A DNA stretch of 64,000 bases from Promethearchaeota archaeon (GCA_019057865.1 JAHLWP010000003.1:32001-96000); one strand, 5' to 3'. Shown: positions 21,017 to 43,982, counted from the stretch's first letter. A program made the numbers and translations. The notes: generated from the letters alone by a model not told the origin.

Positions 21017-22480
21017 CTAAATATACGTATGAATTAAATCAATAAGATTCTTTGAAAAATTTGGTAGGTTTTTCTCAATTTTTTCTACATCAAGAGTCTT
21101 TTCTATAAAGAGAAGTAAATACAAATTGTACTTTTCGACAGTTATCTTTTTAAAGATTATTTTCTTGGATTCATCAGTTATGCCTGATGAAATAATAAAA
21201 TCTTTCTTCAATAATTTAAATTCTTTGAATGTTTTATATAAAGTTTCAAAATGAGGTGCTGAAATTTCAAATACCTTCTCGTAAATTTCAGATTTTGAAT
21301 AGGTTGATAATATAATACCATTTTCATTTAGCAATAATATTGAATCTGAGTTTATTTTCTTCGCGAATTTTCTTAATTGATTCCTAAACAATTCCCGGTT
21401 TGGACTTAACTGTGATAAACCATAAGAGTAAGCAGTAATTAATGACCAATGATCAAAAATAGATGTCTGAAAAATTTTTATGAAAAAAGTATCAGTATTT
21501 TCGTTGATTTCATCTGCTATAACTTCTAAACTTTTAAATATTTCTTTAGAACCTTTCAAATCTGGATCAAATTTATTTAAACAAACTACAATTGGTGGAT
21601 ACTCATCTAATTCTTTCAATGAATTCAATATATTTTTAAATAGAGATAATGCCTCCTTAATTCTTTCAATATCCTGTATATCAATAAAAAAGAACATCAA
21701 GTCAATATTATATATATAAACCTTTCCTTGTTGAAGGAATCTTTCTCTATATTGTTTTTGTCCTCCTAAATCCCAAATAGTAATAGTAGAGTTTTGTTCC
21801 TCAAAAATCTTTTCTTCTGTCCTATCAACTCCTTTAGTAGGAAGTGATTTGATAATTTCGGAGTATTTTCTCTTTACTCCATAAAGAAAACTTGTTTTAC
21901 CAGCTTTATCGAGGCCTGTTAATAAAATTTTTATCTGTTTTTTAAGAGAAAAAGGATCTTTTAATTCTTTAGTAAATTCAAACAAATCTGCTCTCAAATT
22001 AGCCAAAATCTCCTTATATTCACTAGAATTATTAGAATCTTGTATTCTTGTAGCTGCTCTATCAATAATAATCCGTAAATATTTCATATTTTCATAGAAA
22101 AATACCTTATCGTCTTCATTTATTAAAATTGTGATTGTTGATGCTAGAGCTTGACCCCGCGCTTTTGCTTCAGGGATCAAAAAAAAGTAAGTTAATCCGT
22201 TTAACTTTAAATCAGGAAAGGGTAGGATTCCAAAGTAATTAATCCCTTCTGTTCCAGTTCCGTCCTGATAAGTGCTCTCTCCCATTAAAAGTGAGATTGT
22301 TTTCATTGCGATGGAGAAACGGGCTTTATCATCTAACTCTTGAGGCCAGACTAATTTTGGAGTAGGGCCATTCTCATCAAAAATACTTAAAACAATTGAT
22401 TTTATTATGTTCTCTTTCTTATCATTTGGCTTTTCTTCAGTTGCTTTACTTTTCTTCGATTTTAAATTTGATTTAGGCAA
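21017..22480 (-). CDS. uDENN/longin + Rag/Arf-like small GTPase + roadblock-like C-terminal domain
   Basis: IVLSIFDENGPTP longin start; GLDKAGKTS, PTKG, WDLGGQ, NKFD, TSIFD; ILLLNENGIILS roadblock-like. Confidence 0.85.
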   Translation of the reverse strand: MPKSNLKSKKSKATEEKPNDKKENIIKSIVLSIFDENGPTPKLVWPQELDDKARFSIAMKTISLLMGESTYQDGTGTEGINYFGILPFPDLKLNGLTYFFLIPEAKARGQALASTITILINEDDKVFFYENMKYLRIIIDRAATRIQDSNNSSEYKEILANLRADLFEFTKELKDPFSLKKQIKILLTGLDKAGKTSFLYGVKRKYSEIIKSLPTKGVDRTEEKIFEEQNSTITIWDLGGQKQYRERFLQQGKVYIYNIDLMFFFIDIQDIERIKEALSLFKNILNSLKELDEYPPIVVCLNKFDPDLKGSKEIFKSLEVIADEINENTDTFFIKIFQTSIFDHWSLITAYSYGLSQLSPNRELFRNQLRKFAKKINSDSILLLNENGIILSTYSKSEIYEKVFEISAPHFETLYKTFKEFKLLKKDFIISSGITDESKKIIFKKITVEKYNLYLLLFIEKTLDVEKIEKNLPNFSKNLIDLIHTYI

Positions 22481-22603
22481 TTTATCCCCAGTTATATAAT
22501 TAAAAGAGCATGAATTTAATTCATAATATTATACTAATATACCTAAGATAATTATTACTATTAAATTATCTTTTTTCGAAAAAATTAAGGGTTTATAATT
22601 TTA

Positions 22604-24412
22604 TTAAGGAAAAAATTTCAAACATGCTATTTTTGAGGTGTTACAAATCTTTTTTACGAAATCTTTTAAATTTATATTGTTTTTATCAAGTTCATTAAGG
22701 GAAATTTGTTCAAAAATTTCATTTTGAATTAATGGGTGGAATTCTCCTTGCTTAATTACTTTCTCATATAAATCAAATTCTATATTATCTCGAAAATGAG
22801 CAGAATTAGTATAATATTTTCTTTTTCCTTTAGAATAAGGTATTGCTAATTTTGGAAAATGTTTTAAATCTAATCTGACAAATCTATTTAATGCTTTTTT
22901 TGATGAATTTTCAATAAGCGAATAATTTTTACCTTCTTTAGAAGATAGTTCTTCACAAGTTTGAATCATTTTCTTTAAAATTTTCTTTCCTAAATTATAT
23001 GCTTCGGAATGATCATGTAATTCATAATCGGTTAGAATTTTCACTGCTTCATTTAAGCCGACAAAACTTATTGATAAATTTTGGTTTTTCAAATCAAAAA
23101 GATGGTGATTATTAATAAAACCACTACAAAAAGGCAAATGATTTGTGTTCAATCTTTTTCTTATTATATCATATTTTTTTAATAATATAACAGAGCAAAA
23201 CTTCATTTTTTCCTCTAAGATTTCCATATATTGATCTTCTTCCTTCGCGATATAGGCAAATCTTGGTAGATTTAAACAAATACTTTGTAGTACCCCAATA
23301 TTAGAGCTATTAAGTAAATTTATTTGATTTTTTAATTTAGTTTTAAACCAATTAGAACATAAATTTAGAAGATAAGGTGTTTTCACTTTTTTGATCTCTT
23401 CCCAAACCTTTGAATAGGCTGATTCAAAATCATCTAACGATTTTTCAGTAAAAAATATTTGATGTTTTAAAAAATTAAATGAATTACTTAAAAAATCTCC
23501 TTTAATAAAGACGTTAGTAAGAGTATTAAATAGTTTTAAACATTCATCATTATAATCGCCATATACCCCTTTGATTTTTCCATGGGGACCTATTGCAGGA
23601 TATTCGGAGAGATCTTCAAGGATAAATGGTGAAGTTGATATAAATGTTTTTGAGATATTACGACCAATTATTGTGGGCAATTGATTAAATTCATAGACTA
23701 ATTCCCGTATTCCATTAGTTATTTGTTCGTTAGATAAACCCTTTATATAAGGAGCAAGATAAGTAGTGATAGCAGGAAATCCTTGATTCCCACAAAATTC
23801 ACTTTGAATTAAGCTTAACCAATTGGAAAGGTGCTGAATTGCAATGTTAAAATTATCAGCTGGTCCTGATTTACAACATGTAATCTTATTTATTATAGGA
23901 GGTATACCATTCTTTAAGATTATTCGTGGATCCCAGATTTGACTTAGTGGTCTTAAGTCAAAATATTTAAGTTTATTAATATGGATATCTCCATATAAAT
24001 GCGCTTTAGCCTCATTATCATCTAAAATTCTTAATAATGTGTATTCTTCAGCTAATTGATCTGCTGCCCAATTATGTACTTTTTCAGGATTAATCACCTC
24101 TTTAGTAAAGGGTTTACGTCCTTTTTCAAGAATTTCTTCATAATCCATTAGTGGCATACCAATACGGGTATAAAGTTTTCGTTCTTGCTCAAAGTGATTC
24201 TCTGAAAGCATTGAACAAACTATTTCTCTTATATGGGGGCCAGAAAGAAATTTTATGCCTGAACTTATTATTCTCCGTACTACAAGCTCTGTTATATGCT
24301 TAGCATCTTCTTCACTCATTTTTGTTTCTTTAATAATGCTATTAATAATTTTTGAGGGATCAAATTCAGCCATGTCACCCTCTGTTCGAAATACTTTAGG
24401 TAATAAATCCAT
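22604..24412 (-). CDS. ATP-cone-containing NrdD-like protein lacking catalytic motifs
   Basis: ATP cone (FDPSKI..IREIV), AHLYGDIHI, LNLPRFAY, FVGLNEAV, YYTNS; no MGCR loop, zinc site or RxxGY glycyl-radical motif. Confidence 0.8.
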   Translation of the reverse strand: MDLLPKVFRTEGDMAEFDPSKIINSIIKETKMSEEDAKHITELVVRRIISSGIKFLSGPHIREIVCSMLSENHFEQERKLYTRIGMPLMDYEEILEKGRKPFTKEVINPEKVHNWAADQLAEEYTLLRILDDNEAKAHLYGDIHINKLKYFDLRPLSQIWDPRIILKNGIPPIINKITCCKSGPADNFNIAIQHLSNWLSLIQSEFCGNQGFPAITTYLAPYIKGLSNEQITNGIRELVYEFNQLPTIIGRNISKTFISTSPFILEDLSEYPAIGPHGKIKGVYGDYNDECLKLFNTLTNVFIKGDFLSNSFNFLKHQIFFTEKSLDDFESAYSKVWEEIKKVKTPYLLNLCSNWFKTKLKNQINLLNSSNIGVLQSICLNLPRFAYIAKEEDQYMEILEEKMKFCSVILLKKYDIIRKRLNTNHLPFCSGFINNHHLFDLKNQNLSISFVGLNEAVKILTDYELHDHSEAYNLGKKILKKMIQTCEELSSKEGKNYSLIENSSKKALNRFVRLDLKHFPKLAIPYSKGKRKYYTNSAHFRDNIEFDLYEKVIKQGEFHPLIQNEIFEQISLNELDKNNINLKDFVKKICNTSKIACLKFFP

Positions 24413-24712
24413 AATAAGCCTTTAAATGGTTTTTTTTAGTATAATATTCTTTTTCTTGAATTATAATATTCAAGAGACTTAAAAAAAAATATTATTAACT
24501 GATTAAATTGGAATTATTTATTATATAATTTTTAAGTATGCTGGAAGCTTCCTATAAATAGAATTAACCTATGAATTTTTGTCGTACCATACAATAACGC
24601 TTCAAAAAAAGATTCTTTTTAGGGTTTCTGTTTTAAAAAAATTAAAATAATAGTTAATTAAAATTTCGATACTCCCTTTGCTTTATTTTAATGCAATACA
24701 CTCTTCTGACTT

Positions 24713-25516
24713 ATGTTAAAAATATTGCCGGAGACATTTTTAAAAAAATTGTTTATCGAAATATATAATATTTTAAAAAAAACTGAAAAAGCAGCAACTG
24801 AAATATGGTGTGAAGCTTCAGAAATAGATTTTTTTAAGAGATTTAATGACTATGAACTCAGAGATTTTTTAAATTTTTTTGAATTTCTCTCAATTCAAAA
24901 AGGGAAATATTTAGATTACATTGTAATTAATAAAATTTTATTTGTTATGGAATCTGTCAGAATTTTACAATTTGACATTAAAGACGTTTCAGTATTGTTA
25001 GATTATAAAGGTTTTGAAACATTAATAAAAGAAATTTTATTGAAAAACAATTATAAAACTACGACAAATTTTAGGTTTTCAGATAAATCCAATTTTAAAT
25101 CAAAAACTTTACAAAAAAGATATGAAATTGATGTCATAGGTATTTATTTAAATTATGTATTGGTTATTGATGCTAAACAATGGAAACACAAAGATTCGTA
25201 TAGTTCATTAAATAAAGCAGCCAATTTACAATATCAACGTGTTTTAGCTTTGAAGAAAAATCAAGATGCTTTTTCTAAATTAATTCAAAAACTTATGGGT
25301 ACAAATCTTAGTTTAAAAAGAAATTTACCTTTAATATTAATACCTATCATGGTCACAATTGAGGATAATTTTATCAAAATAAATGATAATCAAGTACCTC
25401 TAGTTTCAATATATGAATTGAATTCTTTTTTACAAGAAATACCTAATAACATAGAGTATTTTAAGAAAGTTATGATCTATAAGGTTTCTATACAAAAACA
25501 ACTGTTAAAATTGTAG
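24713..25516 (+). CDS. PD-(D/E)xK nuclease-fold protein (Mrr/NERD-like)
   Basis: DYKGFETLIKEIL...EIDVIG...VIDAKQW. Confidence 0.8.
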   Translation: MLKILPETFLKKLFIEIYNILKKTEKAATEIWCEASEIDFFKRFNDYELRDFLNFFEFLSIQKGKYLDYIVINKILFVMESVRILQFDIKDVSVLLDYKGFETLIKEILLKNNYKTTTNFRFSDKSNFKSKTLQKRYEIDVIGIYLNYVLVIDAKQWKHKDSYSSLNKAANLQYQRVLALKKNQDAFSKLIQKLMGTNLSLKRNLPLILIPIMVTIEDNFIKINDNQVPLVSIYELNSFLQEIPNNIEYFKKVMIYKVSIQKQLLKL

Positions 25517-25624
25517 AACCTTAGCCACAATCTCCAAATTTTTCCTTCCATGTTAAAAATATTAATAATATAGTTTATCTGCTTAAATTTCAAAAAATTA
25601 AAAGGAGTTTAGTTCAAATAAATA

Positions 25625-26566
25625 TTAACTTTTTATACCTAAATATTCTATAAGCTGTTTTTTAACAATATTTGCTGCGAAATTAATAATTCCACTTTTA
25701 GCTTTTGGATATGAGTAAATGACTAAAATCATATCTTTAATGCTTTGAGATTCTTTACCAATTGGAGCTAAATCTAAGACTCCTTCTGTCCCTCTTACTG
25801 ATATAGACTTTAAAGAACCAGCACTTAAACCATTAATAATATCTGCTCCAATTTGATTTAAGGTTTGACCAATAGTAGCAAATAACGTATCAGAAATTCT
25901 ATTTGATAAAGCTGATGCCAATATTGTTCCATCACTCTTTATAATTGCGGAAGCTTCGATATGAAGGTCTAATGTTAATAATTGGTTTAAAATTTCATTC
26001 ATACTAGCGGGGGGGATTTTTTCAGTTACTTGTTCTTTTTTAGTTTTAGATTTAGGTGTATCTAATTTTTTTACTGTAATTTTTTTTGATAAGAATCCCA
26101 AAACTTCAGTCATATCCTTCTCCAATTGTTTCTGTTTCATAAGTGTTGATTCAACTTCTGCTTCTGTACTTTTTGGCAATGTTTGAGTTCCTGAAGTTTC
26201 TCCACTCGGATGTAAAATAGAAACGCTATTTGATGCTATAATTGAGCTTCTATAAGGTTGTGGAGTAATCTCTTTCAAAATTTCTCTTTTGTCTTTTAAA
26301 GATTCTTCGCTTTCAGGTACAATAATTGATTCCGCATCTTTATCCATAAAATCTTCTAATATCTCATCTTCCACTTTTGGAATTTCTTGTAAATCTAAAT
26401 CTTTTAATTTCTGTCCTTTCTCTTTTTTCGTTTTAGAAACTGATACGCGCAATCGTGGTGATTTAGAAGAAACTGGAAGTAAAGCCCCACATTTCCTGCA
26501 AAATTTAACATCTTGATTTGTTGCACCGCAATTTTGACAAATAATTATGGCAAATAACGCCTCCAA
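25625..26566 (-). CDS. zinc-ribbon + low-complexity linker + roadblock/LC7 domain protein
   Basis: CQNCG...FCRKCG at the N-terminus; IEASAIIKSDGTILASAL...LKSISVRGTEG roadblock at the C-terminus; exact start uncertain. Confidence 0.8.
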   Translation of the reverse strand: MEALFAIIICQNCGATNQDVKFCRKCGALLPVSSKSPRLRVSVSKTKKEKGQKLKDLDLQEIPKVEDEILEDFMDKDAESIIVPESEESLKDKREILKEITPQPYRSSIIASNSVSILHPSGETSGTQTLPKSTEAEVESTLMKQKQLEKDMTEVLGFLSKKITVKKLDTPKSKTKKEQVTEKIPPASMNEILNQLLTLDLHIEASAIIKSDGTILASALSNRISDTLFATIGQTLNQIGADIINGLSAGSLKSISVRGTEGVLDLAPIGKESQSIKDMILVIYSYPKAKSGIINFAANIVKKQLIEYLGIKS

Positions 26567-26801
26567 ACAAACTATTATTCAATTTAAAAATTTGCTTTTT
26601 TCATTATTAATATAAAAAAAATTCACTATTATTAATGTTCTTAACTATAAATTTTCTTTCCTTTAACAGTACTATGTCCTATATTGTAACCTTAGAAGTT
26701 AATTTGGTTTACATATTAAACAATAAATGAGAAATCTATTAAAATATTCTATTGAAATAAAAATCTCTAACTAAATATAACTATAAATGAAGTAATAAAT
26801 A

Positions 26802-27767
26802 TTATTTGTATAAAATTTCTCTTAATAAACTAGCAAACGTTTCAAAATCTTCTTTCCGGAATATTGGATCTCCTTTAAGTAGAAGTAGATAATAGGGTGT
26901 TAATCCCTTTTTCACTGTGATCTGTTTAAAAATAAAATTTCTTCCAAATCTCTGAACTATCATTCTGTTTTCATATCTTTCTTCCATGACATCAGTGAAT
27001 TCAAATGAATCATTAAGTGTTAAAAAATATGGGGTTGAAGCGGTGAGGAGATGCTTTACTTCATCATCCTTATAATAAGCCCCAATAATAAGAGAATTAT
27101 CGTCAATCACTACTATTCCTTCAGAATTTACTTTTTTAGCAAATTCTTGAATTGTTTTTGCTATTAATTCAGATTTAGGATATAAACTTAAAAGAATTTC
27201 ACTCATTGCTGTTATAATTGAAGAAAAATCATATATCGATGTTTCATAATAAAAAACTTTTTTATAATCTGTGGCTCTTTTAAAATTCTCTTTTAATTCT
27301 AAAATAAGACTAGTCATTTCATTCTTAGCATTTCTTCTTAATGCTGGATCATATTTATGTAAAAATATGTAAATTGGGGGCTCTATTTCTAATTTTCTAA
27401 ATTGTTCAACCACATCTTTAAAATAGCTAATAGCTTCAGAAATCCGTTCTTTATTCTGAATATCTATAACATATATTGCAATTTCTGTTCCATCAAAAAA
27501 TTTACCCGGGCTCTTTAAATATGATATTCTATAGGAAAGTTGCCCTCCTAAATCCCACTCTGATATATCTTTTCCAAGAAAATTGAATATTCTTCTCTGA
27601 GCCCCTCTCGTAGGAGAAAGTAATGCGATCTTAGAAAATTCTCGCTGAAGGCTTAAAATTATTGAAGTTTTCCCCGCTTCATCAAGCCCCGTAAAGAGAA
27701 TCTTATTCTGAACTGGTTTTTCAACCTCTTCTTTTTTCAGGTATAAGATGGATTGACCTTTTTCCAA
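26802..27767 (-). CDS. Rag/Gtr-like small GTPase with C-terminal roadblock-like domain
   Basis: GLDEAGKTS, PTRG, WDLGGQ, HKYD (His in G4 as in Rags), TSIYD; IVVIDDNSLIIG. Confidence 0.85.
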   Translation of the reverse strand: MEKGQSILYLKKEEVEKPVQNKILFTGLDEAGKTSIILSLQREFSKIALLSPTRGAQRRIFNFLGKDISEWDLGGQLSYRISYLKSPGKFFDGTEIAIYVIDIQNKERISEAISYFKDVVEQFRKLEIEPPIYIFLHKYDPALRRNAKNEMTSLILELKENFKRATDYKKVFYYETSIYDFSSIITAMSEILLSLYPKSELIAKTIQEFAKKVNSEGIVVIDDNSLIIGAYYKDDEVKHLLTASTPYFLTLNDSFEFTDVMEERYENRMIVQRFGRNFIFKQITVKKGLTPYYLLLLKGDPIFRKEDFETFASLLREILYK

Positions 27768-27945
27768 AATAATTTCACCTATGAAATCATTAATGTAATT
27801 TATAAATATATTCTTTTGTAAGATAAAAAATTATATTATTATTTATTTAAGTTTCGCATTAAAAGTTATTATGTAAAAATAGCTAAAAATATTGATAATC
27901 AAAAAACCCATTGAATTGCTAAATCCTTTCCTATTTTGAATAGAT

Positions 27946-28506
27946 TCAAAACTTATTAGTAAAACTTAAATTTTTTCTATATGCAGGTTTTTCCAATATC
28001 TCAATTACTTTCTTAATTGCTTCTTGAGGTGTTTCTGCTCCATAAATTATATCTATTCGCCTATCATCTAATTTCTGATTAGCTATTTTTGAAGACCATC
28101 CTTCACAACTAGTTAAAGCAACAATAGGTTTTTGATATATCCAGGCAAAACAAATTTCTGATAATGTACCTGCCTTACCACTAATAGCTATGCAAGCATC
28201 ACCAGTTAAAACAACAACTATATTTCTAGCTTGAGAAAAGGGGCATGGGATTACTATATCAATATATTTATTAGCAACACTTTTTTCTGCATGTGGAATA
28301 ATACCAATAGTTAATCCATTTTCTTCTTTTGCACCCTTACAAACAGCTTCCATAACACCTGATAATCCTCCACATGCTACAATATATTTACTTTTTGCGA
28401 TTAATTTTCCAATTTCAAATGCCATTTTCTCTGTTTCTTTATCAGTTTCACTAGCACCAACTACTGATATAATTCCTTTAAATTCTTTTTTAAAATCAAA
28501 ATTCAT
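27946..28506 (-). CDS. LOG-like Rossmann-fold protein (TIGR00725-type)
   Basis: ISVVGAS, CGGLSGVMEAVCKGA, ARNIVVV, GTLSEI. Confidence 0.88.
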   Translation of the reverse strand: MNFDFKKEFKGIISVVGASETDKETEKMAFEIGKLIAKSKYIVACGGLSGVMEAVCKGAKEENGLTIGIIPHAEKSVANKYIDIVIPCPFSQARNIVVVLTGDACIAISGKAGTLSEICFAWIYQKPIVALTSCEGWSSKIANQKLDDRRIDIIYGAETPQEAIKKVIEILEKPAYRKNLSFTNKF

Positions 28507-28566
28507 TATCTTAGACTCCTTAGCAAATATTCTCAGTTTTTATAAACAATTATGACTATTATATTT

Positions 28567-29526
28567 TTAAAATTTGAATATTTCTATAGATTTTTGACCA
28601 TCATTAATTTTTAACTTTTTTTCTTTAATAATTTCACCAATAACTCTTGCTTCTAAACCACAATTGCTAAAAATTTCAAGAATTTTATCACAATTAGCTT
28701 TTGGAGCAGTTATTACAAATGATGTTGTTAAATACATTTTTATATAAGTTTCTAAATTATATTGTGCTTCTAGAAGTTTTGGAGGGACATTGATATTATT
28801 AATATTAACATCTGCTCCAACATTCGAATATTTTGTCAATTGTAATAGAGTTCCAAATATTCCTCCATTTGAAATATCTTTTGAAGAATTTGCAAGATGT
28901 ACTTCACCAATCAGATTCATAGATTTACGTTTGTTTAGAATTTCTTCTGAACTTTTAAAAGTCACTGTATCCCAATATAATTTGCTAGCTTTCCCAACTT
29001 TTCCATCAAAATCTACAACTAATATTATAGAATCATTTATTTTAGCATTAATAGCTGATAGATAATTTTCCTTCTTTATTTCTCCAATCATTGTAGAGCT
29101 TAATTCATAGCATTTCCCATGAATATTAGTATGACCTCTTATAATCGGAACTTTAAATTTTTTAGAACCCTCACATATTCCATCAAGCAAACTATTACAT
29201 GTTTTTACATCTTCTACAGAAATAATAATACTAGCAGCTAAAGGAGTACCTCCACAAGCATAAATATCATCAACTCCGACAAGTATAGACGAAAATCCTG
29301 CACCAAATGGGAATTTTTCAACAAAGGTTGTCTTAATTCTATCTGTTGTTATTAATATGAATTTATCATCAGCTTTTATTGATGCTGAATCTTCTCCTAT
29401 ATCTGAAAAGATATTTGTACTTTTAAATGAGTTATTATCTATATGCTGAATTATAGGATTTATCTCAATTTTTTCTATGATATTTTTATTACTTCTGATG
29501 CTTTCTGCTATTTTTTTAAGAACCAT
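28567..29526 (-). CDS. AIR synthase-related (PurM/ThiL/HypE superfamily) protein, methanogenesis marker 2-like
   Basis: GEDSA, VDDIYACGGTP, PIIRGHT, SKDISNGGIFGTL. Confidence 0.8.
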   Translation of the reverse strand: MVLKKIAESIRSNKNIIEKIEINPIIQHIDNNSFKSTNIFSDIGEDSASIKADDKFILITTDRIKTTFVEKFPFGAGFSSILVGVDDIYACGGTPLAASIIISVEDVKTCNSLLDGICEGSKKFKVPIIRGHTNIHGKCYELSSTMIGEIKKENYLSAINAKINDSIILVVDFDGKVGKASKLYWDTVTFKSSEEILNKRKSMNLIGEVHLANSSKDISNGGIFGTLLQLTKYSNVGADVNINNINVPPKLLEAQYNLETYIKMYLTTSFVITAPKANCDKILEIFSNCGLEARVIGEIIKEKKLKINDGQKSIEIFKF

Positions 29527-29620
29527 CTATTATTCTAAAATAAAGCTATTTATAATTAATTTTGCTTAAGTTATATATAGAGAGATTAATAATTTAGAAA
29601 TAAAAAAGAAATTTTAAACA

Positions 29621-31123
29621 ATGGAAGAATTATTTGAATATTCAGTTATTAAGGGTCTTGTTTTTAGTACCTATGATAAGTTAGGTCCTCAACCATTTTA
29701 TATGTTTCCTGAATTTATCAGTGAGATTGAGTTTAAAGAGCATTCTGCAGAAATTAATGAGAAAAATCTATTCAAACTAACCTTGCGCGATTATACCCAA
29801 ATTTCAATAAAAAATTTAAGCTTATTTATAAGTGATAGAAAAATATCGAATGATGATGATTTCCAAAGCGTACAATATTTCGCAATTCTACCTCATCCTG
29901 ATTTTAATGCAACGTCATTAACATTTTTTCATTATATAAAAACTAATTTTACTGAATCTCCTCTTGCTAATAGTTTTTCTATATTGGTTGATGAAAATAG
30001 TAGAAGTTTTCTATATAATAATATAAATAGGATAAAACCACTAATTATAGAATTTTTTACTGAATTTGATAAAGAATTATTTAATGGTTATAAAAAAAAG
30101 GAAGAAATTGAACCCCTGTTTAAAAACTTGTTAAAAAAGTTAATTGAAATTGAAAAAGCACCATCAACAATTATAACCAGTAAAAGAAAAATGAAAATTT
30201 TATTTTCAGGACTCGATGATTCCGGAAAAACTTCATTTCTGTTATCAGTTGACCGTAAATACTCGAAATTAATTGGTTTAAAGCAGACAGCTGGAGCTAA
30301 AGTGAATTCTATTAAAGCTCTTGGAGCAACAATATTTTTATGGGATTTAGGTGGCCAATTAATTTATAGAAAAAGGTATCTTAGCAAAGCTCATATTTAT
30401 TTATATGAAGCAGATTTATTATTTTACTTTATTGATATTAAAAATAGAGATAGATTCGAAGAAAGTATTGATTATTTACTGAATATTAAAAAAATTCTAA
30501 ATGAATATAATCAACAAACACCAATAATATATATTTTGTCAAAAGGGGATTCAGATATATTAAATTCTGATGAAATCCAAGAAAATGCCAGAATTATAAA
30601 AAAAAAATTAAGAGAAATCAATCTTGACGATTCTCTTGAAATCTATATAACGAGCATTTTTCAAATTTTTACAATTTTAAGAGCATTTTCTTCAGGTATT
30701 TCAAAGTTAAGTCCAAATAGAGAGATAATCAATTTTAATCTTAAAACCTTTTCTATGAAAACAAATGTTTATTTAACATTATTATTAAGTACGGATGGTT
30801 TAGTTCTTGCCGATTTCTATTCTTCTGAAGCAAAAAAATTGATTGAAATTCCTGAATCTGAACTTATTAATGTTTTTGAGATTACAGCACCTCAGTTTGC
30901 AATTATATATAAAATATTTTCTAAATTTAAGACTTTACAAAAAGAAGAAGCAATTTTTAAAGTGGCTGATTCTGTAATTATCTTTAAAAAAATTAATATT
31001 ACTGATAATAATATGTTCATTTTATTTTTAGTTGATGATGAATCTAAAGAAGAACTAATTAATGAGCAATTAGACCATTTCTTAGATTACACTAAAGATT
31101 TACTCTTAAGATATATTTCCTAA
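29621..31123 (+). CDS. uDENN/longin + Rag/Arf-like small GTPase + roadblock-like domain (paralogue of 21017..22480)
   Basis: LVFSTYDKLGPQP; GLDDSGKTS, WDLGGQ, degenerate G4 SKGD, TSIFQ; SKLSPNRE and FEITAPQF shared with the paralogue. Confidence 0.85.
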   Translation: MEELFEYSVIKGLVFSTYDKLGPQPFYMFPEFISEIEFKEHSAEINEKNLFKLTLRDYTQISIKNLSLFISDRKISNDDDFQSVQYFAILPHPDFNATSLTFFHYIKTNFTESPLANSFSILVDENSRSFLYNNINRIKPLIIEFFTEFDKELFNGYKKKEEIEPLFKNLLKKLIEIEKAPSTIITSKRKMKILFSGLDDSGKTSFLLSVDRKYSKLIGLKQTAGAKVNSIKALGATIFLWDLGGQLIYRKRYLSKAHIYLYEADLLFYFIDIKNRDRFEESIDYLLNIKKILNEYNQQTPIIYILSKGDSDILNSDEIQENARIIKKKLREINLDDSLEIYITSIFQIFTILRAFSSGISKLSPNREIINFNLKTFSMKTNVYLTLLLSTDGLVLADFYSSEAKKLIEIPESELINVFEITAPQFAIIYKIFSKFKTLQKEEAIFKVADSVIIFKKINITDNNMFILFLVDDESKEELINEQLDHFLDYTKDLLLRYIS

Positions 31124-41688: not shown

Positions 41689-42738
41689 ATGGAAGAAGAT
41701 ATCATAACCTCGGTTTTATATATTGAGCTTAATGATGAACTTGGACCAAACCCAATTGTTTGTCTTCCTTCTGATTTCTCTCTTGAAAATCAAATGCATA
41801 TAAGTATAAAAGTTATTACAATTCTTTCTGGTGAACATGGTCTGGTTCCAGAATCTCTCGTAATCCTTCCATTTCCTTCACTAAATTTAAAGGGATTGAT
41901 TAAATATATAATTTGGGATGATGAATCTCGTAGAGGTGATATTGGTCAATCTGCTATTACTGTACTTTTTAAAAATGTTGATGACGTTATATTTTATCAA
42001 TATAAGAATAATCTTGAGTTAATTTTTAATGAAATTGCAGCAAAAATCATTAAGTTAGAAAAATCAAAAGCAGATAAGAAATATATTACGAACGAGATAA
42101 AAACACTTGAAAGAGTTATATTAAATGCATTATATGAGTTGAAAGTTAAAGAAACTTCTACTCCAGATATGGAAGCTTTTCCTGAAATATCAAGAAAAAG
42201 TTTTGATTTTATAGATTATAAATTTAAGATAAGCATTTGTGGAGATCCTGGTGTTGGTAAAACTTCTTTAATTTTAAGATTTACTAAAAAAGCGTTTAGA
42301 AGAAAGTACATTCCAACATTAGGAGTCGTGGTTTCAGATCGAGCTTTTAAGATCGACGATTCTGTTGTTCAATTGGTAATTTGGGATATCGCGGGACAAG
42401 TAAAGTTCGAAACCATGAGACGACAGTTTTATCTCGGAACAGATGGGGTTTTCTTAGTATTTGACTTAACTAGCTCTAAATCTTTCGATAGCATTCTAAG
42501 ATGGTATCAAGATATTGAAAACCAATTGAAAAAGACAAGAGAAATTATAGGATTTATAATAGGTAATAAAAATGATTTAATCAATGAAAAAATTGTTGGA
42601 TTTGAACAAGCAAATAAGTTAGCAAATGATCTGAATCTTAACTTTATAGAAACTTCAGCTTTAACAGGAGAAAATGTTGAACAAGCTTTTTATGACATTG
42701 CCAAAACTTTATATGAATCATTAAAGAATGATTTATAA
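41689..42738 (+). CDS. uDENN/longin + Rab-like small GTPase
   Basis: LYIELNDELGPNP; GDPGVGKTS, YIPTLG, WDIAGQ, GNKND, ETSAL. Confidence 0.9.
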   Translation: MEEDIITSVLYIELNDELGPNPIVCLPSDFSLENQMHISIKVITILSGEHGLVPESLVILPFPSLNLKGLIKYIIWDDESRRGDIGQSAITVLFKNVDDVIFYQYKNNLELIFNEIAAKIIKLEKSKADKKYITNEIKTLERVILNALYELKVKETSTPDMEAFPEISRKSFDFIDYKFKISICGDPGVGKTSLILRFTKKAFRRKYIPTLGVVVSDRAFKIDDSVVQLVIWDIAGQVKFETMRRQFYLGTDGVFLVFDLTSSKSFDSILRWYQDIENQLKKTREIIGFIIGNKNDLINEKIVGFEQANKLANDLNLNFIETSALTGENVEQAFYDIAKTLYESLKNDL

Positions 42739-42803: not shown

Positions 42804-42941
42804 AAAATTCATAGTTATATGAAATAAAAAAAAAGGTTATTTATTCTTCATCTTCTTCTTAAATTATAATAATTTATATAAATTAATCATATATAGTACC
42901 AATTTTTTTTTAATTAAGTTATAAATTTATTGATACTTACG

Positions 42942-43982
42942 ATGGCTAAAGAACTAATAAAAGCAATAATTTTTACAGAATTTGACGAAGAACTTGGACC
43001 AAATCCGGTTTTATGGTACCCTTCTGATTTACCTGAGAGCTTTCGCATGGTAGTTAGTATTAAATCAATTACAATTCTTTCAGCAGACCAAGGATTGATG
43101 CCGAAATCTCTAATCATTATGCCATTTCCCTCATTAAACTCGAAAGGTATAATAAAATATATTGAAAAAGAAGATAAATCTCGCCGCGGTGGTGTTGCTC
43201 AATCATCTATCACTTTACTTTTCAGTGAAATTGATGATCTGATTTTTTATAAATATTTGATCTTTCTAGAACCTGCATTTAATGAAACTACTCAAGAAAT
43301 AATAAAAATAGAAGATATTAAAACAAATAAAGAAATTCTTTCTAATGAAATAGATAATTTACGGACCGAAATTTTAAATATTTTAGAGGACCTCCGAATA
43401 AAAGAACAATCTGTCCTAAAAACTGAAGCTTTTCCTGAAGAACCTGTAGAAGATAAAGAGGTCATAAAATATAAATTTAAAATAGTGGTTTGTGGTGATC
43501 CGGGGGTAGGAAAAACTTCCACTATTTTAAGATTTACTGATAATGCCTTTATACGTACGTATATTCCAACCCTAGGGGTTAATATTAGCGAAAAAAATGT
43601 TAAGATTGATGGAAACTTAGTTGGATTAATTCTCTGGGACATAGCTGGGCAAAGCAAGTTTGAAACAATGAGAAAACATTTCTATAAGGGAACAGAAGCA
43701 GTTATTTTAATATTTGATTTAACAAATTTGAAATCCTTTGAGAGCATACCTAAATGGTATGAAGACATAAAAAAATATGTAATAGCTGATAATAAAATTG
43801 TTGGATTTATCTTAGGAAACAAGGAAGATTTAGAAGATAGTAGAATAATTGCTAAAAAAGATGCTAATAAAATTGCAAAAGAACTTGGCCTTGATTATAT
43901 AGAAACTTCTGCTTTAACTGGAAAAAATGTAGAGTTAAGTTTTCATAAAGTAGCAGAAGCTTTAATTAATTCTAAAAAATAA
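42942..43982 (+). CDS. uDENN/longin + Rab-like small GTPase (tandem paralogue)
   Basis: IIFTEFDEELGPNP; GDPGVGKTS, YIPTLG, WDIAGQ, GNKED, ETSAL; ATG start chosen over the TTG at 42930. Confidence 0.9.
   Translation: MAKELIKAIIFTEFDEELGPNPVLWYPSDLPESFRMVVSIKSITILSADQGLMPKSLIIMPFPSLNSKGIIKYIEKEDKSRRGGVAQSSITLLFSEIDDLIFYKYLIFLEPAFNETTQEIIKIEDIKTNKEILSNEIDNLRTEILNILEDLRIKEQSVLKTEAFPEEPVEDKEVIKYKFKIVVCGDPGVGKTSTILRFTDNAFIRTYIPTLGVNISEKNVKIDGNLVGLILWDIAGQSKFETMRKHFYKGTEAVILIFDLTNLKSFESIPKWYEDIKKYVIADNKIVGFILGNKEDLEDSRIIAKKDANKIAKELGLDYIETSALTGKNVELSFHKVAEALINSKK

What the first reader, a model, noticed from the sequence alone, without database searches (positions are those of the whole stretch)
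21017..31123. Rag-like GTPases carrying their own FLCN/SMCR8/NPRL2-like longin domain: one with the arginine finger, one without
Seen: the 21017 and 29621 genes are paralogues with the architecture longin - Rag-like GTPase - roadblock. The 21017 protein reads YFFLIPEAKARGQALASTITIL (Arg108, codon 22157-22159). The equivalent stretch in 29621 is FFHYIKTNFTESPLANSFSIL, with no Arg, and its G4 is degenerate (SKGD). Known: FLCN Arg164 and SMCR8 Arg147 sit in an ARGF motif of the longin beta-hairpin, and NPRL2 uses Arg78. Each works with a non-catalytic longin partner (FNIP, C9orf72, NPRL3), and Rags heterodimerise through roadblock domains. Inference: the two proteins could form a fused GAP+Rag heterodimer, a single-locus precursor of the Rag-FLCN/GATOR1 module.
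Basis: partly seen in the sequence, partly recalled or inferred. Interest (0 to 1): 0.88.

Follow-up and report, generated by a model that had tools for sequence, protein, structure and literature searches.

The report
Rag-like GTPases with built-in folliculin-type longin
Two conserved neighbouring genes of a Lokiarchaeial (Asgard) archaeon each fuse a folliculin/NPRL2/SMCR8-type "GAP" longin domain to a Rag-like GTPase, and only one keeps the candidate catalytic arginine, which suggests that the eukaryotic pairing of these regulators with Rag GTPases already exists in archaea as single proteins.

Summary
The genes at 21017-22480(-) (A) and 29621-31123(+) (B) are paralogues (32% identity, E 9e-76) built as longin, Rag/Gtr-like GTPase and roadblock.

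- **Longin class:** the N-domain folds as a longin (pLDDT 89). After a Lokiarchaeal longin (8yqg), its nearest solved folds are Lst4, FLCN, C9orf72 and NPRL2 (Z 12-13.5). Generic longins score 9.5 or less.
- **Motifs:** both proteins keep the published "GP motif" of GAP longins.
- **Arginine:** A107-R108-G109 is invariant in 121/121 A-orthologues. The same hairpin in 121 B-orthologues is variable, with no conserved Arg. A domain tree indicates that B lost it.
- **G4:** B's SKGD is a conserved variant, not a degenerate motif.
- **Neighbourhood:** A and B lie with a third Rag-like GTPase and a zinc-ribbon/roadblock protein in the five genera of their family where I located the genes.
- **Complex prediction:** only weak support for an A-B contact (0.34 against 0.00 for controls).
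- **Open points:** catalysis, the target GTPase and residue-level superposition of Arg108 on FLCN R164 are untested.
- **"Precursor" claim:** not supported. The fusion was found in one order only.
- **Prior work:** the architecture (Tran 2024) and Asgard GP/Arg longins (Traffic 2025) are published. The fusion of the two, and the Arg/no-Arg pair, were not described in the papers I read.

The parts
21017..22480 (-). Gene A (487 aa): Lys-rich tail (1-21), GAP-type longin (22-178), Rag/Gtr-like G domain (179-358), roadblock domain (359-487)
   Evidence: 121 orthologues at 71-99% identity
21947..22417 (-). Longin domain of A (residues 22-178)
   Evidence: AF2 model with pLDDT 89.4 and pTM 0.85, topology bbabbbaa. 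VIA-align: 8yqg Z 18.9, Lst4 13.5, FLCN 13.3, C9orf72 13.0, NPRL2 12.0
22364..22369 (-). GP motif (G38-P39) at the start of strand 2
   Evidence: G 120/121 and P 121/121 in A-orthologues. It aligns to the SMCR8 region with G68-P69, E 0.84, not significant on its own. Motif defined in PMC12290439
22157..22159 (-). Arg108 codon (CGG), centre of the invariant A107-R108-G109 in the strand 4-strand 5 hairpin; candidate arginine finger
   Evidence: R is present in 56 of 69 cluster representatives of the domain family
21407..21946 (-). G domain of A: GLDKAGKT (G1), PT215 (switch I), DLGGQ241 (G3), NKFD (G4), TSIF (G5)
21020..21406 (-). Roadblock (Rag C-terminal-type) domain of A
   Evidence: abbabbba topology. 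Full-length Foldseek matches to LokiRagO, RagA, RagC, Gtr1 and Gtr2
29621..31123 (+). Gene B (500 aa): the same three domains, with no Arg in the hairpin
29636..30178 (+). Longin domain of B (residues 6-186). It keeps GP (G22-P23) and carries a B-specific insert before helix 1 with invariant R56
29924..29986 (+). Hairpin of B equivalent to the ARG hairpin of A (residues 102-122); variable, with no conserved Arg
30539..30550 (+). G4 variant SKGD (307-310)
   Evidence: S 120/121, K and D 121/121 in B-orthologues
26802..27767 (-). Third Rag-like GTPase with roadblock domain and no longin (321 aa); conserved neighbour
   Evidence: Pfam Gtr1_RagA 2e-26. Orthologue lies between B and A in G040, G055, G100 and G118, and near B in G081
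25625..26566 (-). Zinc ribbon, long linker and roadblock domain (313 aa); always directly downstream of the third GTPase
   Evidence: C-terminal part matches PDB 7f8m, a Robl_LC7 protein, E 0.0017
22604..24412 (-). ATP-cone plus NrdD-like protein directly upstream of A; possible accessory or sensor gene
   Evidence: Pfam NRDD 2e-65, ATP-cone 2e-5. A full-length homologue sits upstream of A in G055. ATP-cone-only ORFs lie between the zinc-ribbon/roadblock gene and A in G040 (same strand) and G100 (opposite strand)

Best explanation
A and B are two anciently duplicated Rag/Gtr-like GTPases of Lokiarchaeia. Each carries, in the same chain, an N-terminal longin domain of the class that supplies GAP activity in eukaryotic FLCN-FNIP, GATOR1 (NPRL2-NPRL3) and C9orf72-SMCR8.

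Proposed mechanism (inferred):
- The two proteins pair, through their roadblock domains as Rags do and through their longin domains as FLCN-FNIP2 or SMCR8-C9orf72 do.
- A contributes the single arginine finger (Arg108, next to the GP motif).
- B is the non-catalytic, GP-bearing partner that helps to hold the GTPase, as C9orf72 does.
- The pair would then be a self-contained switch in which hydrolysis on one G domain is stimulated asymmetrically.
- It probably acts with the conserved neighbours, a third Rag-like GTPase and a zinc-ribbon/roadblock protein, in a Rag/Ragulator-like assembly.

Shown: domain identities, motif conservation and its asymmetry, the direction of the Arg loss, and gene linkage.

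Inferred: arginine-finger catalysis, which G domain is the target, and the A-B pairing.
For: 1. Fold. The N-domain model (pLDDT 89.4) ranks the GAP-longin proteins directly after a Lokiarchaeal longin. Z-scores: Lst4 13.5, FLCN 13.3 (rmsd 2.7 A over 135 residues), C9orf72 13.0, NPRL2 12.0. DENND1 scores 10.6 and generic longins (VAMP7, TRAPP, sigma-adaptins, Sec22b, Ykt6) 9.5 or less (Foldseek order).
2. Sequence. 9 of 91 homologues match Pfam Folliculin (best 1.3e-6). Three that I looked at individually score about 3e-4, just under the curated cut-off.
3. Motifs. GP is essentially invariant in both paralogues and ARG is invariant in 121/121 A-orthologues. PMC12290439 reports GP only in FLCN, NPRL2, SMCR8 and C9orf72 and next to the arginine finger. 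In the model, GP opens strand 2 and Arg108 sits in the strand 4-5 hairpin at the same end of the sheet.
4. Asymmetry. B's hairpin is variable and B's longin is less conserved than A's (60% against 78% mean identity).
5. Direction of change. The longin domains of A and B fall in one supported clade (98/93). The L-Rab and roadblock-longin clades carry Arg, so B lost it.
6. G domains. Both keep G1, the switch-I Thr and the DxGGQ glutamine. The G+roadblock part matches RagA, RagC, Gtr1 and Gtr2 over its full length (1e-17 to 1e-13).
7. Linkage. The order B | third GTPase, zinc-ribbon/roadblock, A is kept in genera g1, g3, g4 and g5, and A and B also lie on one contig in a g2 genome. B is single-copy in 37/41 and 10/14 sampled genomes of the two families.
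8. Complex prediction of longin+G of A with longin+G of B, roadblock domains left out, with GTP and Mg: weak support. ipSAE median 0.34 (runs 0.14, 0.41, 0.34), best of 3 controls 0.00. The runs agree in at least 50% of contacts and the partner's pLDDT is at least 80. In the tool's calibration the mark was reached by 58 of 80 solved complexes and 2 of 110 mismatched pairs. At 0.60 or under it was reached by only 7 of those 80 and by both mismatches that passed.
Against: - No residue-level superposition of Arg108 on FLCN R164, NPRL2 R78 or SMCR8 R147 could be made. The sequence profiles reached no eukaryotic GAP longin significantly (SMCR8 E 0.84, over the GP region only).
- A itself is below the Pfam Folliculin cut-off (12.7 against 23.3 bits).
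- The closest solved homologue, 8yqg, has no Arg at this site, so the domain can exist without it.
- The complex score is in the weak band, and likeness to solved longin dimers may contribute.
- A solved Lokiarchaeal Rag-like GTPase is a homotetramer (8yl2 title), so homo-oligomers are a real alternative.
- The linker between the longin and G domains is short, and it is unknown whether the hairpin can reach any nucleotide pocket.
- Linkage among related genomes may partly reflect shared ancestry.
- B has its own invariant Arg56 in a B-specific insert, whose role is unknown.
Confidence: 0.5

Rival explanations
1. A and B work separately. A forms homodimers or higher oligomers in which Arg108 acts in cis or reciprocally in trans on A's own G domain. 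B is an independent Rag-like switch whose Arg-less longin serves as a platform or regulator.
For: A solved Lokiarchaeal Rag-like GTPase is a homotetramer and another is monomeric (titles of 8yl2 and 8zla). The related longin 8yqg crystallised as a dimer. PMC10933270 reports AF2 homodimer models for such architectures. The A-B prediction is only weak. G048 and G097 show A without a B hit, and G109 shows B without an A hit.
Against: A and B are linked and single-copy across the family. The catalytic/non-catalytic paralogue pattern matches the three eukaryotic heterodimeric GAPs. The genomes lacking one partner are fragmented assemblies, 85-99% complete.
Confidence: 0.22
2. The A-B longin pair is a GAP for a separate GTPase, most likely the conserved neighbour at 26802-27767 (third Rag-like GTPase). 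The G+roadblock parts of A and B then take the scaffolding place that DENN or C-terminal domains hold in FLCN/FNIP and NPRL2/3.
For: The third GTPase and its zinc-ribbon/roadblock partner always lie between B and A. Eukaryotic GAP longins act in trans on a separate GTPase (PMC9473554; bioRxiv 10.1101/2021.04.13.439632). The same longin family also occurs without a GTPase, as roadblock-longin and stand-alone forms.
Against: Both A and B keep complete, conserved G motifs including the catalytic Gln, so they are switches themselves. Fusion usually marks the direct partner. No test of the third GTPase was run.
Confidence: 0.15
3. The longin domains are not GAPs. As with most longin and roadblock modules, they act as GEF-like platforms, dimerisation modules or membrane or partner adaptors, and Arg108 is structural.
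For: Most longin/roadblock platforms are GEFs or scaffolds (PMC10933270). 13 of 69 family representatives and the solved homologue 8yqg lack the Arg. No activity data exist for any Asgard member.
Against: Arg plus the following Gly, and GP, are among the best-kept positions in a family that is otherwise 25-35% identical. GP is reported to be specific to GAP longins (PMC12290439). A hairpin tip is an odd place for a purely structural invariant Arg.
Confidence: 0.1

Closest known systems
FLCN-FNIP2, GATOR1 NPRL2-NPRL3 and C9orf72-SMCR8 (eukaryotic longin-domain GAP complexes)
   Same: Same longin subclass by fold ranking. GP motif present. Arg in a loop of the longin sheet. Paralogous pair with one Arg-bearing and one Arg-less member. 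As in SMCR8/C9orf72, both members keep GP. The client is a Rag-type GTPase (FLCN, NPRL2).
   Different: Here the longin is fused in cis to the GTPase, and the GTPase plus roadblock stands where the eukaryotic proteins have DENN or NPRL C-terminal domains. No TOR, DEPDC5 or WDR41 context. Sequence similarity is below Pfam's cut-off for A itself. Activity is untested.
RagA/B-RagC/D and Gtr1-Gtr2
   Same: G domain plus C-terminal roadblock domain. Pfam Gtr1_RagA above cut-off. Full-length structural matches. Two diverged paralogues encoded together.
   Different: An extra N-terminal longin. G1/G3 are of the Arf type (GLDxxGKT, WDLGGQ). About 19 Gtr1_RagA-like genes in this genome. Heterodimerisation is not shown.
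Longin-GTPase-roadblock Rag-like proteins of Prometheoarchaeum MK-D1 (Tran et al. 2024, PMC10933270)
   Same: The same three-domain architecture in the same archaeal group, described there from AF2 models.
   Different: In the parts I read, that paper does not assign the longin to the FLCN/NPRL2 class. It does not note the GP/ARG motifs, the Arg/no-Arg paralogue pair or the conserved four-gene neighbourhood.
Asgard 'FLCN/SMCR8-type' longins with GP motif and arginine finger (Traffic 2025, PMC12290439)
   Same: GP plus Arg in the same arrangement, with GAP function proposed.
   Different: That paper leaves open which GTPases are the partners, and the terms 'fused' and 'fusion' turned up no Asgard longin-GTPase fusion. 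Here the partner is fused: Rag-like in A and B, Ras/Rab-like in the two genes at 41689 and 42930.
PDB 8yqg, longin domain of a Lokiarchaeota roadblock-longin protein
   Same: Closest solved homologue (profile E 1.3e-27; Z 18.9). Crystallised as a dimer.
   Different: Different architecture (roadblock-longin). No Arg at the hairpin in that protein, which reads EPEK in place of ARGG.

Membership tests
GAP-type longin domain (FLCN / NPRL2 / SMCR8 class) | Longin fold (beta-beta-alpha-beta-beta-beta-alpha) | tested here: met
   AF2 model of A 22-178: E5-14, E17-24, H30-45, E61-67, E72-82, E90-100, then helices; pLDDT 89.4
GAP-type longin domain (FLCN / NPRL2 / SMCR8 class) | Closer in structure to FLCN/FNIP, NPRL2/3 and SMCR8/C9orf72 than to other longins | tested here: met
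   Z 11-13.5 for Lst4, FLCN, C9orf72, NPRL2 and Npr2; 10.6 for DENND1; 9.5 or less for VAMP7, TRAPP, sigma-adaptin, Sec22b and Ykt6
GAP-type longin domain (FLCN / NPRL2 / SMCR8 class) | GP motif at the strand 1-2 loop or start of strand 2 | tested here: met
   G38-P39 in A and G22-P23 in B, invariant or nearly so in 121+121 orthologues. Model residues 17-18 open strand 2. Definition from PMC12290439
GAP-type longin domain (FLCN / NPRL2 / SMCR8 class) | Catalytic arginine in the equivalent loop | tested here: inconclusive
   A has invariant ARG in the strand 4-5 hairpin. B has none. Equivalence to FLCN R164, NPRL2 R78 or SMCR8 R147 rests on topology and motif likeness only; no superposition was possible
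GAP-type longin domain (FLCN / NPRL2 / SMCR8 class) | Match to Pfam Folliculin (PF11704) above the curated cut-off | tested here: not met
   A: 12.7 bits, E 0.2, cut-off 23.3. Homologues: 9/91 at E<1e-3, best 1.3e-6; the three scanned individually (P0280, P0288, P0333) scored 20.8-21.5 bits, just under the cut-off
GAP-type longin domain (FLCN / NPRL2 / SMCR8 class) | C-terminal DENN domain (FLCN, FNIP, SMCR8, C9orf72) or NPRL C-terminal domain | tested here: not met
   The longin is followed by a Rag-like G domain and a roadblock domain
GAP-type longin domain (FLCN / NPRL2 / SMCR8 class) | Arg-dependent stimulation of GTP hydrolysis | not testable with these tools
   Needs biochemistry
Rag/Gtr GTPase family | Pfam Gtr1_RagA above the cut-off | tested here: met
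   A 93.2 bits and B 73.1 bits, cut-off 22
Rag/Gtr GTPase family | G domain followed by a C-terminal roadblock domain | tested here: met
   Model of A 179-487 (pLDDT 75) has abbabbba after the G domain. Full-length matches to RagA, RagC, Gtr1, Gtr2 and Lokiarchaeal Rag-like structures; Arf matches cover only the G domain
Rag/Gtr GTPase family | Intact nucleotide-binding motifs | tested here: met
   G1, switch-I Thr, DxGGQ, [NS]KxD and TSIF conserved in both groups
Rag/Gtr GTPase family | Obligate heterodimer through the roadblock domains | not tested
   The roadblock domains were left out of the only complex job on purpose
Rag/Gtr GTPase family | Coupling to Ragulator/EGO and TORC1 | not testable with these tools
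   A zinc-ribbon/roadblock neighbour is present. No binding data. TOR was not searched for

The most novel reading that the evidence does not exclude
A and B form an obligate heterodimer that is a complete, self-regulating Rag switch. Its longin pair (one catalytic, one pseudo-catalytic) sits on the G domains like FLCN-FNIP2 on RagC. It is docked to a second roadblock pair (third GTPase plus zinc-ribbon/roadblock protein) and is fed by an ATP-cone sensor encoded upstream. That would be an archaeal Rag/GAP/Ragulator-like nutrient or nucleotide-sensing module without TOR. It would show that the split into a catalytic and a dead longin paralogue arose independently of, or before, the three eukaryotic GAP complexes.
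Probability: 0.25. Interest if true: 0.85.

Novelty: new variant of a known kind. Interest (0 to 1): 0.66.

Why it matters
The 2025 survey of longin GAP complexes (PMC12290439) asks which Asgard GTPases partner the GP/Arg longins. Domain fusion is the classic "Rosetta stone" answer. Here the same longin family is fused to Rag-like GTPases (A and B) and, 11 kb away, to Ras/Rab-like GTPases.

The A/B pair also shows a catalytic/non-catalytic paralogue split like FLCN/FNIP, NPRL2/NPRL3 and SMCR8/C9orf72, but within proteins that also contain the GTPase. If Arg108 is a finger, this gives a compact, prokaryote-expressible system for three studies:
- how longin GAPs work;
- how Rag asymmetry is set;
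- what a Rag module does in a cell without lysosomes or TOR.

It does not by itself show ancestry of the eukaryotic machinery.

Tried and rejected
- **Residue-level link to eukaryotic GAP longins by sequence.** Profiles of the whole domain, of its beta core and of the hairpin region were searched against all PDB sequences, as was a single Folliculin-positive homologue. Only 8yqg was significant. SMCR8 appeared at E 0.84 over the GP region, and FLCN and NPRL2 did not appear. Arg108 therefore could not be aligned to R164, R78 or R147.
- **Papers behind 8yqg, 8yl2 and 8zla.** None was found in the library.
- **Supplementary sequences of PMC12290439.** They are not held.
- **ESM Atlas feature search.** All scores were under 0.9, so it gives a lead only. 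One Promethearchaeota cluster has Pfam NPR2 on 19% of its members.
- **NCBIfam.** It gave only the generic small_GTP domain.
- **'Degenerate G4' in B.** Considered and rejected.
- **B's nearby Arg at the position equivalent to A 104.** It is present in only 48/121 orthologues, so it is not a displaced finger.
- **NCBI organism names on orthologues.** The names Hod-, Hermod-, Thor-, Odin- and Heimdallarchaeota are not evidence of a wide distribution. These proteins are 60-78% identical to A or B, and the genome sample finds A-type genes in one order only.
Full report
**Observation**

The window has about 27% G+C. Its proteins have closest relatives named Promethearchaeota or Lokiarchaeia. ORFs at 21017-22480(-) (A, 487 aa) and 29621-31123(+) (B, 500 aa) exist as stated. 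They align over their full length at 32% identity, E 9e-76.

Arg108 of A is encoded by CGG at 22157-22159 and lies in YFFLIPEAKARGQALASTITIL. B reads FFHYIKTNFTESPLANSFSIL from residue 102, and has SKGD (307-310) where A has NKFD.

**Domain identities**

Pfam places both central regions in Gtr1_RagA (93 and 73 bits, cut-off 22) and gives nothing for the first ~175 residues.

An AF2 model of A 179-487 (pLDDT 75) shows a G domain followed by an alpha-beta-beta-alpha-beta-beta-beta-alpha roadblock domain. Foldseek matches it over the full length to two solved Lokiarchaeal Rag-like GTPases (8yl2, 8zla) and then to RagA, RagC, Gtr1 and Gtr2 (E 1e-17 to 1e-13). Arf proteins match the G domain only.

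An AF2 model of A 22-178, built on 69 family members, has pLDDT 89.4 and pTM 0.85. Its topology is the longin one, beta-beta-alpha-beta-beta-beta-alpha.

**Which kind of longin**

Foldseek and VIA-align both put a Lokiarchaeal longin (8yqg) first, Z 18.9. Next come, without exception, members of the eukaryotic longin-GAP complexes:
- Lst4: 13.5
- FLCN in 8DHB: 13.3 (rmsd 2.7 A over 135 residues)
- C9orf72: 13.0
- NPRL2: 12.0
- yeast SEA complex chain: 10.8

DENND1 follows at 10.6. VAMP7, TRAPP subunits, sigma-adaptins, Sec22b and Ykt6 score 9.5 or below.

At the sequence level, 9 of 91 homologues of the domain match Pfam Folliculin (best 1.3e-6). Three that I looked at individually score about 3e-4, just under the cut-off. 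A itself scores only 12.7 bits.

The 2025 survey PMC12290439 defines a GP motif at the start of strand 2. It reports the motif only in FLCN, NPRL2, SMCR8 and C9orf72 and next to the arginine finger, and reports GP plus Arg in some Asgard longins. Both A (G38-P39) and B (G22-P23) have this motif, at the start of strand 2 in the model.

The best non-Asgard hit of the core profile in the whole PDB is SMCR8, aligned over exactly this region, but at E 0.84.

**The arginine**

- In 121 A-orthologues (71-99% identical overall), A107, R108 and G109 are each 121/121.
- In 121 B-orthologues the aligned position is S, E, K, F, D and others. The whole hairpin is variable.
- Across 69 representatives of 50%-identity clusters of the domain family (25-35% identical to A), 56 carry Arg here, mostly as ARG or RRG.
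- In the model, Arg108 is residue 87, in the loop between strands 4 and 5. By longin topology this is at the same end of the sheet as the strand 1-2 turn that carries GP.
- The literature places FLCN R164 and NPRL2 R78 in analogous loops of their longin domains (PMC7464330). It shows SMCR8 R147 and FLCN R164 at the gamma-phosphate position.
- I could not superpose residues. No coordinates are released and no profile reached FLCN or NPRL2. The equivalence of Arg108 is therefore a strong lead, not a result.

**Direction of change**

A maximum-likelihood tree of the longin domains gives three groups: longin-Ras/Rab fusions, roadblock-longin proteins, and a supported clade (98/93) of longin-Rag-roadblock proteins. 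That third clade contains both the A clade (all with Arg) and the B clade (none with Arg). Arg is present in all three groups, so B most simply lost it after duplication of a whole three-domain gene. B's longin also evolves faster (60% against 78% mean identity).

**G domains**

Both groups keep GxxxxGK[ST], the switch-I Thr, DxGGQ and TSIF. B's SKGD is fixed (S 120/121; K and D 121/121). The neighbouring Rag-like protein has HKYD. The first position of G4 is thus variable in this family, and 'degenerate' is not justified.

**Context**

The genome (4.26 Mb, 99.7% complete) holds only four copies of this longin, all within this window: A, B, and a tandem pair at 41689-42738 and 42930-43982. In the tandem pair the longin, here with SRRG, is fused to a Ras/Rab-like G domain. 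About 19 Gtr1_RagA-like genes exist in the genome; only A and B carry the longin.

Distribution:
- A-type orthologues were found in 18 of 20 sampled genomes of the family and 2 of 2 of the sister family. They were not found in the other 23 families of the phylum sampled.
- B is single-copy in 37/41 and 10/14 genomes of these two families.
- The longin family as such is wider, in 39 of 121 genomes.

Gene order is kept in genera g1, g3, g4 and g5, and A and B also share a contig in a g2 genome. B is transcribed divergently from a Rag-like GTPase without longin (26802-27767), followed by a zinc-ribbon/roadblock protein (25625-26566), then A (roadblock support). In the sister family, A lies on another contig.

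**Pairing test**

I left the roadblock domains out, because a Rag-type roadblock dimer would pass by likeness to solved structures. I asked whether longin+G of A and longin+G of B are placed together, with GTP and Mg.

Verdict: weak support.
- ipSAE 0.34 (runs 0.14, 0.41, 0.34); best of three controls 0.00.
- The runs agree in at least 50% of contacts, and the partner's pLDDT is at least 80.
- In the tool's calibration the mark was reached by 58 of 80 solved complexes and 2 of 110 mismatches. At 0.60 or below it was reached by only 7 of the 80 and by both mismatches that passed.
- No interface was reported.

**Reading**

The best-supported account is a Rag-like pair with a built-in FLCN-class longin pair. 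A is the Arg-bearing member and B the GP-bearing, Arg-less member, most like SMCR8/C9orf72, where both subunits keep GP. They act within a conserved four-gene Rag/roadblock neighbourhood.

Which nucleotide pocket Arg108 serves remains open: A's own, B's, or that of the third GTPase. So does whether A and B pair at all rather than forming homo-oligomers, as the title of 8yl2 shows for another Lokiarchaeal Rag.

The 'precursor' idea is not supported. The fusion was found in one order only, so a lineage-specific fusion is more economical, though it still reports a functional link.

**Novelty**

Already published:
- the longin-GTPase-roadblock architecture in MK-D1 (PMC10933270);
- NPRL2-like and FLCN-like longins in Asgard archaea (bioRxiv 10.1101/2020.10.19.343400);
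- GP plus Arg in Asgard longins (PMC12290439).

Not found in those papers:
- that the GP/Arg longin is the one fused to Rag-like (and Rab-like) GTPases;
- the conserved Arg/no-Arg paralogue pair;
- the conserved neighbourhood.

The first-stage scan noted the same features in this genome, but those notes are untested.

Noticed in passing
41689-42738 (+) and 42930-43982 (+): Tandem pair of the same longin family fused to a Ras/Rab-like G domain (Pfam Ras 1e-47). Both copies keep GP and an SRRG hairpin, so the Arg/no-Arg split is not general. Such longin-Rab genes also occur in the other genomes of the family.
   Followed up: partly
22604-24412 (-): An ATP-cone plus NrdD-like ORF lies directly upstream of A. 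A full-length homologue lies just upstream of A, after the zinc-ribbon/roadblock gene, in G055. ATP-cone-only ORFs of about 150 aa lie between those two genes in G040 (same strand as A) and G100 (opposite strand). An ATP-cone sensor may be linked to the module.
   Followed up: partly
29771-29800 (+), B residues about 51-60: B has a roughly 20-residue insert before helix 1, with invariant R56 and nearly invariant D57, T59 and Q60 in 60 orthologues. Role unknown. By topology it lies at the end of the sheet opposite to the GP and hairpin end.
   Followed up: no
22418-22480 (-), A residues 1-21: Lys-rich, poorly conserved N-terminal tail, kept in length across orthologues. It could be a membrane- or nucleic-acid-binding tail. 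The gene starts with TTG.
   Followed up: no
24713-25516 (+): An opposite-strand ORF with weak NERD/DUF234 similarity interrupts the otherwise co-directional run from the third GTPase to A in this genome.
   Followed up: no
27946-29526 (-): A SLOG cluster4 protein (Pfam 8e-43) and an AIR-synthase-related protein sit between the third GTPase and B. I did not check whether they are conserved there.
   Followed up: no
orthologues P0012, P0013, P0060, P0162, P0226 and others: NCBI names assign 60-78% identical orthologues to Hod-, Hermod-, Thor-, Odin- and Heimdallarchaeota. The genome sample finds A-type genes only in one order, so these labels are probably unreliable.
   Followed up: partly
PDB 8yqg, 8yl2, 8zla, 9m28: Structures released in 2025-2026 of a Lokiarchaeal longin dimer, a homotetrameric Rag-like GTPase ('LokiRagO') and a monomeric one ('LokiRagM') are the closest solved relatives. 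No paper on them is in the library.
   Followed up: partly
G118:C172:51516-53725: In genus g5 the longin-less Rag-like GTPase is duplicated in tandem between A and B.
   Followed up: no
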